Shown: one piece after another, positions 1,767 through 6,088 of the stretch | Layout: each line of letters begins with the position of its first letter | Numbering within the stretch: position 1 is the stretch's first letter | Assembly (NCBI GenBank): GCA_016875535.1 | Contig: VGPF01000007.1 | Location: forward strand, 7,998 to 71,997 | Origin: Chloroflexota bacterium | GTDB taxonomy: Bacteria; Chloroflexota; Dehalococcoidia; SHYB01 | Direction: 5' to 3' | DNA length: 64,000 nucleotides | Position numbers and translations under genes: made by a program | Notes under the pieces: generated by a model | Told to the model about the DNA's origin: nothing | The model's input: only the letters and a program-made list of their open reading frames with translations | Databases searched by the model: none

Positions 1767-2243
1767 CTACTTTGCGGGAGGAGCCGCCGCCTTCTTCTCG
1801 CCTCCGCCCGAGGCAGCCGCCGCCCCGCCGCCCTTCCCGCGCTTGGCGCCGTACTTGCTGCGACCCTGCTTCCGATCAGTCACGCCGGCAGAGTCCAGCG
1901 TGCCGCGGATGATGTGATAGCGGACGCCGGGCAGGTCAGGAACACGGCCGCCGCGGATAAGGACCACGGAGTGTTCCTGGAGGTTATGCCCTTCGCCGGG
2001 GATGTAGGCGGTGACTTCCATGCCGTTGGTGAGGCGCACGCGGGCTACTTTGCGAAGCGCCGAGTTGGGCTTCTTGGGGGTAACAGTGCGCACCTGGGTG
2101 CAGACGCCGCGCTTCTGGGGAGCGCCGGGGCCGCGCTTCTGGAGTTTCTCCAGAGAGTTAAAGGTGAAACGAAGCGCAGGGGCCTTAATTCGGCTACCCT
2201 TATGCTTCCTTCCCTTACGTATCAGTTGGTTTATCGTAGGCAC
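1767..2243 (-). CDS. rpsL: 30S ribosomal protein S12 (GTG start, Gly/Ala/Lys C-terminal tail)
   Basis: [46 protein letters not shown]; start re-called at GTG 2243. Confidence 0.98.
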
Positions 2244-2308
2244 AGCTATCCTCAAGTTCTGAACGCTGGACAAGAAAATAGGAGGACAATGTATCCGCGC
2301 AAGTAGCT

Positions 2309-2844: not shown

Positions 2845-3738
2845 ATGAAAGTCGGCGCCTTTGAACTCACCGAACCGTTGCCGGAGCTGCGGGAGCCGCA
2901 TGCCCTTGCGATGCTGCGCCCGTGGATTGATGTGGGCAGCGTCGGCAGTCTGGCCCTCGCGCGATTGGAGAGTCACCTGCAGGCGCAGGAGTTGGGGAAG
3001 CTCGCGAAACCGGGCATGTTCTTCGATTTCACCCGCTACCGGCCCATGCTGACGAACCGGGACGGCAAGCGGGAGGTAACTCTCCCCAATAGCTTCATCC
3101 GCTATGCTCGGCGGGCGAACGGCCCGGACTTCATCTTTCTACACTTACTAGAGCCGCACATGTTCGGGGAGGATTACACGGATTCCGTGGTTGAGCTCTT
3201 TAAGGTCCTTGGGGTGAAGCGCTACTTCCTGGCCGGGGCGATGTACGATGCCGTGCCCCACACGCGGCCGCTGCTTGTAACAGGCAGCATCTCCGGCATC
3301 AACATCCAGCATCTGCTCGGCTCAAGCAAGGTGGAGCAGAGCACGTACGCGGGCCCGACGACGATCAACTACCTTGTGGGACAGAAGGCGAGCGAGATGG
3401 GAATCGAAAACTCCAGCCTTATCGCGCATCTGCCGCAATATGCCCAACTGGATGAGGATTTTACCGGCGCGGCGCGCGTACTAGAGATCCTGGCGGCGAT
3501 CTACAACCTGCCGAAAGGCATCATAGACTACAAGCGCGGCGAGGAGCAGTACCAAGAGCTCGGCCTCGCCGTCGCCAGCGACCCGCGGCTCAAGCCGATG
3601 ATCCGCCAGCTCGAGCAGACCTATGACGCGCGGGCGAAGGAGCGCGCCGGCCCGTCGCCGGCGCAGCTCTCAGCCGAGTTGGAGAATTTCCTGCGGGAGA
3701 TGGGGGAGAAGCTGGACGGCGGCGAGACGAAAAGCTAG
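2845..3738 (+). CDS. PAC2 (proteasome assembly chaperone-like) family protein
   Basis: WIDVGSVG, FFDFTRYRP, EPHMFGEDY, HLPQYAQL resemble actinobacterial/chloroflexal PAC2 proteins; SD AGGAG upstream. Confidence 0.8.
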   Translation: MKVGAFELTEPLPELREPHALAMLRPWIDVGSVGSLALARLESHLQAQELGKLAKPGMFFDFTRYRPMLTNRDGKREVTLPNSFIRYARRANGPDFIFLHLLEPHMFGEDYTDSVVELFKVLGVKRYFLAGAMYDAVPHTRPLLVTGSISGINIQHLLGSSKVEQSTYAGPTTINYLVGQKASEMGIENSSLIAHLPQYAQLDEDFTGAARVLEILAAIYNLPKGIIDYKRGEEQYQELGLAVASDPRLKPMIRQLEQTYDARAKERAGPSPAQLSAELENFLREMGEKLDGGETKS

Positions 3739-3756
3739 TGCCCTGGGGCGGATGAC

Positions 3757-3792
3757 AAAAAAACGGCCCGCCGATACGGCGGGCCGTTTTTT
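3757..3792. terminator. Bidirectional intrinsic terminator
   Basis: AAAAAAACGGCCCGCCG-ATA-CGGCGGGCCGTTTTTT between convergent PAC2 gene and micropeptide 1. Confidence 0.9.
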
Positions 3793-3811
3793 CTCCATCG
3801 AGTTGGAGCAG

Positions 3812-3853
3812 TTACTTCTTCTTCTTCTTTGCAGCCTTCTTCTTAGCGGCCAT
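3812..3853 (-). CDS. Lys-rich micropeptide 1, MAAKKKAAKKKKK (13 aa)
   Basis: SD GGAGGTGAT upstream of ATG at 3853; all 8 Lys codons AAG; TAA at 3812-3814; own promoter and terminator. Confidence 0.65.
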   Translation of the reverse strand: MAAKKKAAKKKKK

Positions 3854-3890
3854 GGTAGATATCACCTCCCTCTCCACTAAGCTATTTTCC

Positions 3891-3919
3891 ATAGTAGCAT
3901 GCGCGATGGCGTCATCCAA
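3891..3919 (-). promoter_or_regulatory. Sigma70-type promoter of micropeptide 1
   Basis: Minus strand TTGGAT-17 nt-TACTAT; extended -10 TGCTACTAT is identical to that of the rpsL promoter. Confidence 0.6.
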
Positions 3920-4247
3920 ATGCGCTGTGTGAATACGTAATTTGTTTTCATGAATCGTTTGTGCTTGGTTGATGCATATGCGATGCATTGCGTGTGATTT
4001 CGCTACGCTATGCTTCGATTTCGCGTGATAGCGATGTTGCAGCGCACACGCGCCGATGATTTGCTCCGCGATACGCGCGCACGCGCTTCGAGGTCCGTCG
4101 AAGCTCCTCATCAACAACAGCCCGACACACGCACCCAGGGAAGAAATGCCGCTGCGTGACGGCGCGCTCCATCGGCGCGGCGCGCAGATCAATGCCGACG
4201 CCGCCCCAGCGGCAGCACCTCGGCATCTCGCGCCGACATTCGCGGGC

Positions 4248-4285
4248 AAAATAAAAGCGCCCCGATCTGCACCGGGGCGCTTTTT
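4248..4285 (-). terminator. Intrinsic terminator of micropeptide 2
   Basis: Minus strand AAAAAGCGCCCCG-GTGCAGAT-CGGGGCGCTTTTATTTT. Confidence 0.85.
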
Positions 4286-4304
4286 ATCCGCAGAGCGGAT
4301 ACAG

Positions 4305-4328
4305 TTACTTCTTCTTCTTCTTCTTCAC
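4305..4328 (-). CDS. Poly-Lys micropeptide 2, (M)KKKKKK (7 aa, GTG start)
   Basis: SD AAAGGTGGTGATC (12/13 match to the extended anti-SD complement AAAGGAGGTGATC) with 8 nt between GGTGG and GTG; AAG x6 then TAA. Confidence 0.55.
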   Translation of the reverse strand: MKKKKKK

Positions 4329-4362
4329 CAGGATCACCACCTTTCGACCTGAGGATTGATTC

Positions 4363-4390
4363 ATGGTATCACGAACATGCTTATGTTCAA
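4363..4390 (-). promoter_or_regulatory. Sigma70-type promoter of micropeptide 2
   Basis: Minus strand TTGAAC-16 nt-TACCAT with extended TG (TGATACCAT). Confidence 0.5.
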
Positions 4391-4573
4391 GTCCAACATC
4401 GGCAATCCACCGTATGAGTGCCTATTTGTGACGTTATCAATCGAGACCATATCGCGCATAGGCATGGATTTCGATGCAGTATGCCTCGATTTCTCCGTGA
4501 CCTATAGGCGCACCACGGAGATTCATGAAATCGAGAGCGCGCCGGTCTCGCACGTCGGAGCACCACACTGCGT

Positions 4574-5014
4574 CTACGACGCCGCGCGCGGCTTCTTCCT
4601 CGAGAAGTAGCGCTTCATCGGCTGGAAATAGAACTCGTCCCAGCCCTGCTTGTAGCTCTCGCCCTGCCCGGGAGGAATGTCTGTGTGCTTGAACGTGATA
4701 CGCGTTCCTCCCTGGGCTTTCGCAAAGAGCACTTCCAACCGCGAGTCCCTGGCATCCTTGGGAAACTCTGTGGTCCGCCAGGACTGCAGGATGCGCCTCC
4801 CCGGCTCAAGCGCCAGCGTCACGCCGGAGATGTAGCCGTCCCACGCCGTGTGCTTCCCACCCACCTTCGGCTCGATGACGGCCTCTCCCCCGGTGAAATC
4901 ACTGTGGGCTTTGCTATCGAGCCAGCCTTCGTACAGCCTCTTGGCATCGGCGGGTATCACCGCGGAAACCTCGATGGCGTCAAGCTTCGCGGCGGGCTTC
5001 TTCTTTCCAGGCAT
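4574..5014 (-). CDS. SRPBCC/AHSA1-like domain protein
   Basis: PKVGGKHTAWDGYISG, RILQSWRTTEF, GWDEFYFQPM typical of Aha1-like START fold. Confidence 0.85.
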   Translation of the reverse strand: MPGKKKPAAKLDAIEVSAVIPADAKRLYEGWLDSKAHSDFTGGEAVIEPKVGGKHTAWDGYISGVTLALEPGRRILQSWRTTEFPKDARDSRLEVLFAKAQGGTRITFKHTDIPPGQGESYKQGWDEFYFQPMKRYFSRKKPRAAS

Positions 5015-5512
5015 CTATCGCTCCTTCGCGCCGCTCTTCTTGGCATTGGCGGTCATGAATTCCACGATCTGCCTCTGGCCACGGCGCATCGTCCAATTGT
5101 GGTTCGCGCGGAAAAGGGGACGGAGGAGCGGGGAGAAATACTTCACCACGCCCTTCTCCACCCTCGGGTTCCAATCCAGCGTGACTCGAGAGCCGCCGGG
5201 CGCAGGCTCCACGATCCATCGGGAGGCGTCCGTCACGAAATCGCCCGTGGCCTTGAACTGGATGAGGCGCGGCCTCTCAAGAGCCGTGCTTTCGATCGTG
5301 AAGCGCAGCTTGTAGGGAAGGAAGCCCCGGGCGGTGACATCCACCAGCGCGCCCACACGCGGCTCCTTTTCGCCGTTGCGCGCCTTGGCGGTAAGGTACA
5401 CGCCGCGCCACCAGAGAGGAAAGTCCTCTGCGCGCGAAAGGACCCTCCAGACTTCGTCGGGAGGAAAGGGGACGAACCAGTGGTCTTCGAAGTGGTAGCT
5501 GTTGAGCGGCAT
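5015..5512 (-). CDS. SRPBCC (polyketide cyclase/dehydrase) family protein
   Basis: PPDEVWRVL...FPLWWRGV, C-terminal NHNWTMRRGQ helix. Confidence 0.8.
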   Translation of the reverse strand: MPLNSYHFEDHWFVPFPPDEVWRVLSRAEDFPLWWRGVYLTAKARNGEKEPRVGALVDVTARGFLPYKLRFTIESTALERPRLIQFKATGDFVTDASRWIVEPAPGGSRVTLDWNPRVEKGVVKYFSPLLRPLFRANHNWTMRRGQRQIVEFMTANAKKSGAKER

Positions 5513-5970: not shown

Positions 5971-6088
5971 AGGAAACCTCCCTAGGCAGGGACACGGCTT
6001 GCGGGAGCATCCGCAGGCGGCGTCTACACGTCAAGGCGCGGTAAACAGCTTATGCTCCGTATTATCTGCCTGGGGAGACGCGGCAGCG

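What the first reader, a model, noticed from the sequence alone, without database searches (positions are those of the whole stretch)
3812..3919. Micropeptide 1 (MAAKKKAAKKKKK) has a ribosomal-protein-grade promoter
Seen: TTGGAT-17-TACTAT with TGCTACTAT identical to the rpsL extended -10, and a 9-nt SD. Established: AAKK-type repeats occur in histone H1 tails and bacterial histone-like proteins that compact DNA. Inference: a highly expressed minimal H1-like or ribosome-associated peptide. Its downstream neighbour is convergent, so it cannot be an attenuator leader for a downstream operon.
Basis: partly seen in the sequence, partly recalled or inferred. Interest (0 to 1): 0.7.

Follow-up and report, generated by a model that had tools for sequence, protein, structure and literature searches.

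The report
Stand-alone oligolysine micro-gene, widespread family
The 13-codon reading frame is very probably a real, strongly expressed miniature gene for a tiny lysine-rich peptide, and near-identical unannotated mini-genes occur in many unrelated bacteria, so an abundant class of gene-encoded polycations may have been overlooked.

Summary
On the minus strand, 3853-3812 encodes MAAKKKAAKKKKK. It follows a 12-bp Shine-Dalgarno (SD) sequence and TTGGAT-17-TGCTACTAT, and precedes a bidirectional terminator.

A second unit, MKKKKKK (4328-4305), lies 450 nt upstream. These two have the strongest SD-start pairs in the window (-19.6 and -21.3 kcal/mol; best long ORF -14.5).

A sister species (PAC2 88% identical) keeps both units and has a third, MKKKGKK. 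From the -10 to the terminator, ORF1's unit is about 94% identical there, while PAC2 third codon positions differ at 43%. The rival 145-aa ORF shows no codon-position bias and is not coding.

A metagenome scan found at least 81 ORFs of 46 aa or fewer beginning MAAKKKAAKKK, in 59 flank clusters (GC 31-75%). They show SD motifs, TAA/TAG stops (TGA 1 of 81), AAG preference, terminators and tandem arrays. Members are abundant in soil metatranscriptomes.

No protein collection, Pfam, NCBIfam, Rfam, PDB or paper searched holds them.

Most likely the product is a free H1-tail-like polycation. That function is inferred, not shown.

The parts
3928..3955 (-). A+T-rich block (ATTCATGAAAACAAATTACGTATTCACA) 9-36 nt upstream of the -35; possible UP element or regulator site
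   Evidence: Nearly invariant between the window and the sister species, while neighbouring intergenic DNA diverges. Its function is inferred.
3914..3919 (-). -35 hexamer TTGGAT (TTGGAC in the sister species)
   Evidence: The spacer is 17 nt in both species although 7 of 17 spacer bases differ. A third variant in run X21 also changes only spacer bases.
3891..3899 (-). extended -10, TGCTACTAT, identical to that of the rpsL promoter (2309-2317)
   Evidence: two occurrences in the window against 0.06 expected. Invariant in the sister species.
3854..3884 (-). predicted 5' UTR (start site about 3884, inferred) with the SD GGAGAGGGAGGTGAT at 3861-3875
   Evidence: 0 differences in 31 nt between the two species. 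Duplex with the anti-SD is -19.6 kcal/mol, second strongest of all start codons in the window.
3812..3853 (-). micro-ORF 1: MAAKKKAAKKKKK, stop TAA
   Evidence: The sister species shows two substitutions, both synonymous (GCC>GCT, GCA>GCT). An identical peptide sits behind unrelated UTRs in about 15 other loci.
3757..3792 (.). bidirectional intrinsic terminator (A-run, CGGCCCGCC/GGCGGGCCG stem, T-run), shared with convergent PAC2
   Evidence: One compensatory G-C to A-T change in the stem in the sister species.
4363..4390 (-). promoter of micro-ORF 2: TTGAAC, 16-nt spacer, TGaTACCAT
   Evidence: Read from the sequence. This block is 94% identical in the sister species while the surrounding intergenic DNA does not align.
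4305..4345 (-). micro-ORF 2: SD GAAAGGTGGTGATCC (4331-4345), then GTG AAG x6 TAA = MKKKKKK (4328-4305)
   Evidence: Duplex is -21.3 kcal/mol, the strongest in the window. Conserved in the sister species, where the stop is TAG.
4247..4285 (.). intrinsic terminator of micro-ORF 2 (bidirectional in form)

Best explanation
Window 3757-3955 (minus strand) is a complete miniature gene. It has a sigma-70-type promoter (conserved A+T-rich block, weak -35, extended -10 shared with rpsL). The transcript is about 125 nt and carries an unusually long SD, a 13-codon ORF and an intrinsic terminator 25 nt after the stop.

The ORF is translated into MAAKKKAAKKKKK. The mature form is probably AAKKKAAKKKKK, with about +8 to +9 charge. 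It is one of two tandem paralogues here (the other is MKKKKKK) and three in the sister species. It belongs to a widespread, unannotated family of (A/x)AKKK-repeat micro-ORFs.

The most likely product function is a diffusible oligolysine polycation. It would act like a free-standing histone-H1/Hc2-type tail or a gene-encoded polyamine. It would bind nucleic acids or other polyanions (nucleoid DNA, rRNA and other RNA, polyphosphate) non-specifically. Dosage would be set by copy number and strong expression signals.

Shown: the anatomy, conservation, family-wide translation signatures, and transcription of relatives.
Inferred: translation in this organism, peptide stability, and the polyanion-binding role.
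For: Anatomy and chance controls.

Purifying selection:
- From the -10 to the terminator the unit is about 94% identical to the sister species, with 0 of 31 changes in the 5' UTR and 2 synonymous changes in the ORF.
- There is one compensatory change in the terminator stem.
- PAC2 third codon positions differ at 128 of 297, and other intergenic DNA does not align.
- Promoter hexamers and spacer length are kept while spacer bases change, in three lineages.

Family:
- At least 81 ORFs of 46 aa or fewer, in 59 flank clusters, locus GC 0.31-0.75.
- UTRs are unrelated and Ala/Lys codon choice varies freely.

Translation signatures not imposed by the search pattern:
- SD motif in 75 of 81 against a 24% background (p 3e-39).
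- TGA stops 1 of 81 against 56% (p 9e-28).
- AAG fraction 0.75 against 0.61 (p 5.5e-9).
- SD duplex median -12.4 against -6.5 kcal/mol (p 2e-18).
- Terminator within 100 nt in 39 of 59 clusters against 26 of 234 random windows.
- K:R of 202:8 in GC-rich loci.

Other points:
- Tandem arrays recur in L073, L083, L080/L084, L128 and L149.
- The 18-aa member is held by at least 14 soil metatranscriptomes. In the four laid on it, contig depth is about 45-1300x (200-1300x in three of them) against 0-3x in the flanks. Other members are also present.
- The same N-terminal motif occurs as a tail on HU and SWIB DNA-binding proteins and in roughly 100-aa H1-like proteins.
- Lysine pentamer repeats and tails bind DNA or RNA in Hc2, TopA, Ku and PhaF (abstracts of PMC2848022, PMC5714199, PMC3553676, PMC12818456, listed).
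Against: - There is no RNA, Ribo-seq or proteomic datum for this organism.
- The UTRs are as conserved as the ORF between the two sister species, so that pair alone cannot separate peptide-level from RNA-level selection.
- The family was retrieved with a pattern that fixes the first 11 residues. Identity of those residues is therefore not independent evidence, and low-complexity convergence cannot be told from common descent.
- A 7-residue product (MKKKKKK) is very short for a stable functional peptide.
- H1-like family models do not match.
- No binding partner is known.
- The 16S 3' end was assumed, not read from this genome.
Confidence: 0.5

Rival explanations
1. The act of translation or the RNA itself is the function. 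In this reading a minigene transcript with a very strong SD captures or recycles 30S subunits as a ribosome decoy, or reports lysyl-tRNA supply. The peptide would be a by-product.
For: - The two SDs are the strongest of all start codons in the window, 5-7 kcal/mol beyond any long ORF.
- The 5' UTR and the 3' spacer are as conserved as the ORF between sister species.
- One paralogue encodes only 7 residues.
- The alphaproteobacterial member lies in an RNA with conserved hairpins, 10 of whose pairs show double changes.
Against: - Across lineages only the SD and the peptide are shared, while the UTRs are unrelated.
- The strict preference for Lys over Arg and the continuum to longer H1-like proteins point to the product. 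The excess of AAG fits efficient or accurate translation of the product.
- SD strength is variable in the family: the 15-46-aa classes have medians of about -8 to -11 kcal/mol.
- No target or downstream gene is evident.
Confidence: 0.2
2. It is a dedicated small ribosomal protein occupying a fixed rRNA pocket, like Thx, bS22, bL37 or eL41.
For: - The extended -10 is the same as in rpsL, and the gene lies 1.5 kb from the rpsL operon.
- Expression signals are strong.
- Very small basic ribosomal proteins exist (own knowledge).
Against: - Length varies from 7 to 46 aa and copy number from 1 to 3.
- The sequence is low-complexity.
- Neighbours in 132 flanking genes fall into 90 Pfam families, with no ribosomal-operon linkage.
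- No NCBIfam or PDB match for relatives of 20-55 aa.
- PAC2 relatives at 62-66% identity keep rpsL-PAC2 synteny without the micro-ORFs.
Confidence: 0.12
3. It is a lysine-sensing leader peptide of a transcription attenuator.
For: There are 8 Lys codons in 13, and a terminator follows. A weak sub-threshold Rfam Thr_leader hit falls on the terminator (26.9 bits against a cutoff of 55).
Against: - The next gene is convergent.
- The stop lies 25 nt before the hairpin, and no alternative pairing appears in the minimum-free-energy fold.
- No lysine-pathway family is among the 25 commonest of the 90 Pfam families among the family's neighbours.
- Many members are followed by opposite-strand genes.
Confidence: 0.04
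4. There is no function: an (AAG)n microsatellite that happens to lie behind an ATG, or the 145-aa ORF 3812-4249 is the real gene.
For: The repeat is low-complexity. The frame stays open upstream for 157 codons in the window and 97 in the sister species.
Against: - Upstream substitutions are flat across codon positions (13/11/15, p 0.74), against 29/20/128 in PAC2.
- The promoter and SD lie inside the long ORF, which has no Pfam match.
- The units are islands of conservation.
- Family-wide SD, stop-codon and terminator statistics argue against chance.
Confidence: 0.03

Closest known systems
Bacterial histone-H1-like lysine-rich repeat proteins (chlamydial Hc2, Pseudomonas AlgP, the PhaF tail, Burkholderia H1-like protein)
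   Same: Built from Lys/Ala-rich pentamer-type repeats with no acidic or hydrophobic residues. About 20 H1-like proteins of roughly 100 aa in the same scan start with the identical MAAKKKAAKKK. These proteins bind DNA, RNA or polyphosphate through such repeats (papers listed).
   Different: - 13 (or 7) residues instead of 100-240.
- No match to NF038052 or NF038053: best 10.8 bits against a cutoff of 80, and only for a 55-aa relative.
- Own promoter and terminator, arranged in tandem arrays.
- Binding is untested.
Lysine-rich tails of DNA enzymes and nucleoid proteins (actinobacterial HU/Hlp, Streptomyces TopA, mycobacterial Ku)
   Same: The same AAKKK/PAKKA chemistry. In this scan the motif also occurs as the N-terminal tail of HU-like and SWIB-domain proteins.
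   Different: Here the tail is expressed alone, with no folded domain to target it.
Very small basic ribosomal proteins (Thx, bS22, bL37, bL36; eL41 in archaea and eukaryotes)
   Same: Tiny, highly basic, strongly expressed and often missed by annotation (own knowledge). Here the gene shares its -10 with rpsL.
   Different: Those have fixed lengths and specific sequences. This family is a variable-length low-complexity repeat with variable copy number and no ribosomal gene linkage.
Amino-acid-rich leader peptides of attenuators (thrL, hisL; mycobacterial poly-Cys short ORFs)
   Same: A short ORF dominated by one amino acid's codons, followed by a terminator.
   Different: No regulated downstream gene, no antiterminator, a strong SD and stand-alone transcription units.
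Polyamines (spermidine, spermine) as cellular polycations
   Same: The proposed role is the same: small, diffusible, multivalent cations that neutralise nucleic acids. This is an inference.
   Different: Made on the ribosome from a gene, with a higher charge (+7 to +9), and degradable by peptidases.

Membership tests
H1-like lysine-rich DNA-binding proteins (Hc2 NF038052, Burkholderia type NF038053) | Lys/Ala-rich short tandem repeats without acidic or hydrophobic residues | tested here: met
   The sequence is M-AAKKK-AAKKK-KK. The family's unconstrained part contains K 202, A 80, R 8 and L 1, with no D or E.
H1-like lysine-rich DNA-binding proteins (Hc2 NF038052, Burkholderia type NF038053) | Score above the curated cutoff of the family model | tested here: not met
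   no hit for relatives of 20-36 aa. The 42-aa relative hit only an unrelated Rpf model at E 8.2. The 55-aa relative scored 10.8 bits against a cutoff of 80, and 8.4 against 135. The 13-mer is too short to scan.
H1-like lysine-rich DNA-binding proteins (Hc2 NF038052, Burkholderia type NF038053) | Binds and condenses DNA | not testable with these tools
   Needs gel-shift (EMSA), condensation assays or localisation.
Leader-peptide transcription attenuator | Run of codons for the sensed amino acid in a short ORF | tested here: met
   8 of 13 codons are Lys.
Leader-peptide transcription attenuator | Alternative antiterminator that a stalled ribosome would favour | tested here: inconclusive
   The stop is 25 nt before the terminator hairpin. 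The minimum-free-energy fold shows only a 5-bp hairpin plus the terminator. No suboptimal or covariation analysis was possible with two sequences.
Leader-peptide transcription attenuator | Co-oriented downstream biosynthetic or transport operon | tested here: not met
   The downstream gene, PAC2, is convergent. The family's neighbours span 90 Pfam families, and no Lys-pathway family is among the 25 commonest.
Small basic ribosomal proteins (Thx, bS22, bL37, bL36) | Conserved specific sequence and fixed length, recognised by family models | tested here: not met
   Length is 7-46 aa. No NCBIfam match.
Small basic ribosomal proteins (Thx, bS22, bL37, bL36) | Seen as a chain in a solved ribosome structure | tested here: inconclusive
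   No PDB chain matches a 22-aa relative at E up to 10. However, chains under 20 residues are not in the library, and no ribosome of a carrier may have been solved.
Small basic ribosomal proteins (Thx, bS22, bL37, bL36) | Conserved linkage or co-regulation with ribosomal protein genes | tested here: not met
   The window gene is 1.5 kb from rpsL and shares its -10. Across the family no such linkage holds, and closer PAC2-rpsL syntenic loci lack the ORF.
Type I toxins and membrane micro-proteins | Hydrophobic transmembrane segment | tested here: not met
   The peptide has no hydrophobic residue other than Met1 and Ala.
Rfam sRNA families (sX6 RF02225, CC2171 RF01867) | Score at or above the gathering threshold | tested here: not met
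   sX6 scored 29.6 bits against 40, and CC2171 24.5 against 75. The aligned parts are the AAG run and the terminator only. The gathering-threshold scan of the whole window found only a tRNA.
Sigma-70-type promoter with extended -10 | -35 and -10 hexamers, TG at -15/-14, 16-18-nt spacer, conserved in relatives | tested here: met
   TTGGAT-17-TGcTACTAT. Hexamers and spacer length are conserved while spacer bases change. The -35 matches only 3 of 6 positions. Activity was not measured.

The most novel reading that the evidence does not exclude
Bacteria from at least two phyla (Chloroflexota and Alphaproteobacteria), and probably many more, carry stand-alone and often tandemly repeated genes for 7-46-residue oligolysine peptides. 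These genes are among the more abundant transcripts in soil communities and are absent from current protein catalogues. In this reading the peptides are gene-encoded polyamine-like counter-ions that tune nucleoid, ribosome, RNA or polyphosphate electrostatics. That would be a new class of abundant cellular component.
Probability: 0.35. Interest if true: 0.85.

Novelty: new variant of a known kind. Interest (0 to 1): 0.72.

Why it matters
If the peptides are made, a common and highly expressed gene class has been invisible. Gene callers discard ORFs this short. Low-complexity filters hide them from similarity searches. Trypsin cuts the product into single residues and dipeptides, so standard proteomics cannot see it.

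Ribosomally made oligolysines would add a genetically tunable polycation to the known set of Mg2+, polyamines and nucleoid proteins. That bears on how bacteria neutralise DNA and RNA charge, stabilise ribosomes and organise polyphosphate.

The case is also directly testable. The alphaproteobacterial 18-aa member lies in a lineage close to cultured Hyphomicrobiales, where deletion, recoding, Ribo-seq and top-down mass spectrometry are feasible.

For annotation, the family gives a clear signature: strong SD, M-AAKKK repeats, a TAA/TAG stop, and a terminator about 26 nt downstream.

Tried and rejected
- Known RNA families: the Rfam gathering scan of the whole window found only a tRNA. Permissive scans gave only sub-threshold hits on the AAG run and terminators, and nothing for the L054 RNA.
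- The 145-aa ORF: no Pfam match, and a flat codon-position substitution pattern.
- Synteny: 36 genome loci with PAC2 at 63% identity or less, and three metagenome loci of 62-64% relatives, keep rpsL-PAC2 but have no K-rich micro-ORF. This locus is therefore informative only within the genus.
- Expression in this organism: only DNA metagenomes from lake water hold the sequence. No RNA run holds the window or the sister species. Run X21 gave a third DNA variant only.
- Conserved neighbourhood: 132 neighbours fall into 90 Pfam families, none dominant.
- Named families: NCBIfam and PDB searches with relatives of 20-55 aa were empty or insignificant.
- Exact look-up of ten members of 22-55 aa in the 15-billion-protein collection found none. 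The 13-mer is below the tool's length limit.
- Literature: seven full-text searches, including the peptide strings themselves, and two small-proteome papers found no description.
- My first terminator detector was too strict. It was replaced by the one.

Full report
**1. The observation**

Read on the minus strand, the window carries these elements:
- An A+T-rich block at 3955-3928.
- TTGGAT at 3919-3914, a 17-nt spacer, and TGCTACTAT at 3899-3891.
- A 5' leader of about 31 nt containing GGAGAGGGAGGTGAT (3875-3861).
- ATG GCC GCT AAG AAG AAG GCT GCA AAG AAG AAG AAG AAG TAA at 3853-3812, which reads MAAKKKAAKKKKK.
- A 25-nt spacer with a 5-bp hairpin.
- A strong hairpin flanked by an A-run and a T-run (3792-3757). 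This serves as a bidirectional terminator for this unit and for the convergent PAC2-family gene (2845-3738, plus strand; Pfam E 6e-29).

Chance controls:
- TGCTACTAT occurs twice in 64 kb, at the rpsL promoter and here. Shuffles give 0.06.
- AAGAAGAAGAAGTAA occurs twice. Shuffles give 0.
- The consensus promoter scan did not list this site, because the -35 matches only 3 of 6 positions. It did list the rpsL promoter.

**2. A second unit, and exceptional ribosome-binding sites**

About 450 nt upstream on the same strand lies a second unit:
- Promoter TTGAAC-16-TGaTACCAT (4390-4363).
- SD GAAAGGTGGTGATCC (4345-4331).
- GTG AAG x6 TAA, which reads MKKKKKK (4328-4305).
- Its own terminator (4285-4247).

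I assumed a standard 16S 3' end (GAUCACCUCCUUUCU). On that basis the SD/anti-SD duplexes are -19.6 kcal/mol for ORF1 and -21.3 kcal/mol for ORF2.

For comparison, the best value among 52 long ORFs is -14.5, even when each long ORF is given its most favourable start. Their median is -8.6, and rpsL scores -6.7. Over every ATG, GTG and TTG in the window on both strands, these two rank first and second.

**3. Conservation in the nearest relatives**

The flanking PAC2 protein has only two close relatives in 5.8 billion clusters, at 100% and 87% identity. The next are at 66% or less.

The 87-88% relative is represented by L001 and L038, which are identical over the region. L001 is a MAG contig whose record title reads Thermoflexus hugenholtzii. 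The window sequence itself is held by lake-water metagenomes.

This sister species has the same arrangement with three units: MKKKKKK, an extra MKKKGKK, and MAAKKKAAKKKKK. Each has an SD and a terminator.

For ORF1, the stretch from the -10 to the end of the terminator is about 94% identical:
- The 5' UTR shows 0 of 31 changes.
- The ORF shows two changes, both synonymous.
- The terminator stem shows one compensatory G-C to A-T exchange.
- The promoter spacer differs at 7 of 17 positions but keeps its length.

By contrast, PAC2 third codon positions differ at 128 of 297. The rest of the intergenic DNA does not align.

A third variant, in run X21, changes spacer bases, one base upstream of the -35 and one base near the predicted start. 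It shows no change in the -10, SD or ORF.

ORF2 with its promoter is a 94%-identical island.

More distant PAC2 loci keep rpsL-PAC2 synteny but lack any such ORF.

**4. The rival 145-aa ORF**

The frame of ORF1 stays open upstream for 157 codons here and 97 in the sister species. However:
- Substitutions there are spread 13/11/15 over codon positions (chi-square p 0.74). In PAC2 they are 29/20/128 (p 4e-27).
- The promoter and SD lie inside the long ORF.
- It has no Pfam match.

It is not a gene.

**5. A widespread family**

I scanned public metagenome contigs with ATGGCNGCNAARAARAARGCNGCNAARAARAAR.

Of the 122 ORFs, 81 complete ORFs are 46 aa or shorter:
- 28 in total have 12-14 residues, counting the window and L001.
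- About 15 loci encode exactly MAAKKKAAKKKKK.
- The remainder are (A/T/V/P)xKKK repeats of increasing length.

A further group of about 20 are H1-like proteins of roughly 100 aa. A few are ordinary proteins, such as HU-like and SWIB-domain proteins, with this N-terminal tail.

The micro-ORF loci have GC contents of 0.31-0.75 and unrelated UTRs. They fall into 59 clusters by flanking sequence.

The pattern fixes the first 11 residues, so I tested only features it does not constrain:

| Feature | Micro-ORFs | Background | p |
|---|---|---|---|
| SD-like motif at -20 to -4 | 75/81 | 24% before any ATG in the same loci | 3e-39 |
| SD duplex energy, median (kcal/mol) | -12.4 | -6.5 | 2e-18 |
| TGA as stop codon | 1/81 (TAA 58, TAG 22) | 56% of long ORFs | 9e-28 |
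| AAG share of Lys codons | 0.75 | 0.61 | 5.5e-9 |
| Terminator within 100 nt (per cluster) | 39/59 | 26/234 random windows | 6e-17 |
| K:R beyond residue 11, loci with GC 0.6 or more | 202:8 | far lower in background | - |

Further details:
- A-runs in the micro-ORFs stay at 9 nt or fewer even in 31-35% GC loci.
- The hairpin starts a median of 26 nt after the stop, as in the window.
- The free part of the peptides contains no acidic residues.
- With one representative per cluster the results hold: SD in 53/59, and stops TAA 44, TAG 14, TGA 1.
- Tandem arrays of two or three different K-rich micro-ORFs recur in L073, L083, L080/L084, L128 and L149.
- Flanking genes are unrelated: 132 neighbours fall into 90 Pfam families, and no lysine-pathway family is among the 25 commonest.

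**6. Expression of relatives**

No RNA run holds the window or the sister species.

The 18-aa member, MAAKKKAAKKKAAKKKKQ, lies 78 nt after nrdJ. Named NrdJ relatives of that lineage are Alphaproteobacteria, mostly Hyphomicrobiales, at 70-80% identity.
- It is held completely by at least 14 soil metatranscriptome runs.
- Four of those runs were laid on the locus. RNA contigs cover L054 3745-4191 at assembler depths of about 45-1300 (200-1300 in three runs), while the flanks have 0-3.
- Contigs carrying other family members are present in the same runs. These include the L066 type (depth 35 against 2-3 in the flanks) and a GAGGGGG-SD type (depth 146).

Contig depth is a rough measure, but transcription of family members is established.

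**7. What is known**

- Rfam has no family for these RNAs.
- NCBIfam and the PDB sequence library give nothing significant for relatives of 20-55 aa.
- Ten members of 22-55 aa are absent from a 15-billion-protein collection, so they have not been called as genes there.
- Full-text searches found no description. These included the strings AAKKKAAKKK, KKKAAKKK and MAAKKK, and two small-proteome papers.
- The closest described entities are lysine-rich pentamer-repeat proteins and tails: Hc2, AlgP, PhaF, TopA and Ku.

**8. Interpretation**

The evidence is strong (I put it near 0.9) that this is a real, translated, strongly expressed micro-gene. It is not a leader, a chance repeat, or part of a longer gene.

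What the product does is inferred. Four points support a free oligolysine polycation that binds nucleic acids or other polyanions non-specifically, in effect a stand-alone H1/Hc2-type tail or a gene-encoded polyamine:
- The composition is only Lys and Ala, and Lys rather than Arg even at 70% GC.
- Repeat number and gene copy number vary.
- There is a continuum to H1-like proteins.
- The same motif serves as a tail on DNA-binding domains.

I give this about 0.5.

The main rival is that the RNA or the act of translation matters (about 0.2). It is supported by the extreme SDs, the equally conserved UTRs in the sister-species pair, and the 7-codon paralogue. It is weakened because across lineages only the SD and the peptide persist.

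A dedicated ribosomal protein remains possible (about 0.12). That model fits poorly with the variable length and copy number and with the lack of ribosomal linkage.

An attenuator leader and 'no function' are largely excluded.

**9. Verdict**

It is one copy of a tandem array and a member of a widespread, expressed, unannotated family of oligolysine micro-genes.

I rate it a new variant of a known kind (lysine-rich H1-like polycations and small proteins). The interest is high because the family appears undescribed and is directly testable.

Limits of this work:
- No expression or peptide data exist for this organism.
- The family search was biased by its pattern.
- Homology cannot be separated from convergence for such low-complexity sequences.
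- The 16S 3' end was assumed.

Noticed in passing
L001 5375-5398 (minus strand); equivalent spacer in window 3960-4246: The sister species has a third micro-ORF, MKKKGKK, with SD GAGAGGGAGGTGAT and its own terminator, between the two units shared with the window. The window has no trace of it. Copy number therefore changes between close species.
   Followed up: partly
L054 3706-4005 (minus strand) and eight related loci (alignment A4): The alphaproteobacterial 18-aa member is embedded in an RNA whose 5' and 3' UTRs form conserved hairpins. Ten predicted pairs show double, pair-preserving changes. There is no Rfam match, and depth in soil metatranscriptomes is very high. It could be a dual-function or unusually stable RNA.
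   Followed up: partly
L145 179-247 (minus-strand orientation): One locus of the same lineage has the ORF disrupted after codon 15 by a deletion, giving MAAKKKAAKKKAAKKTSTKSPS, and lacks the conserved 3' structure. This is a natural loss variant.
   Followed up: no
window 1767-2273 (minus strand): The ribosomal protein S12 gene ends with about 21 extra Gly/Ala/Lys-rich residues ([21 protein letters not shown]), compared from memory with E. coli S12. Its real start is probably the GTG before [10 protein letters not shown], not the mechanical TTG.
   Followed up: no
window 3943-3953; L001 about 5490-5500 (upstream of the third unit): A TTCATGAA palindrome sits 25-35 nt upstream of the -35 of ORF1 in both species, and upstream of the extra unit in the sister species. 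It may be a regulator site or part of an UP element.
   Followed up: no
window 4238-4405 and 3738-3867 (minus strand): There are sub-threshold Rfam hits to the Xanthomonas sRNA sX6 (29.6 and 15.3 bits, cutoff 40) and to Caulobacter CC2171 (24.5 bits, cutoff 75). The sX6 alignment, the only one inspected, covers only the GAAGAA run and the terminator. It would be worth checking whether those sRNAs contain K/E-rich short ORFs.
   Followed up: partly
L064, L074, L093, L105, L159: A recurrent 78-84-aa protein begins with the same motif: MAAKKKAAKKKTIRRTTLRSSKGTKLYAVRAADGTFKDIQTYKRAHSADIRKS... It also ends in a K/A-rich tail and was not identified.
   Followed up: no
window 4574-5014 (minus strand) versus L001 about 6010-6030: The AHSA1/SRPBCC-family protein next to the array ends in ...SRKKPRAAS in the window but in ...GKTKKKK in the sister species.
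   Followed up: no
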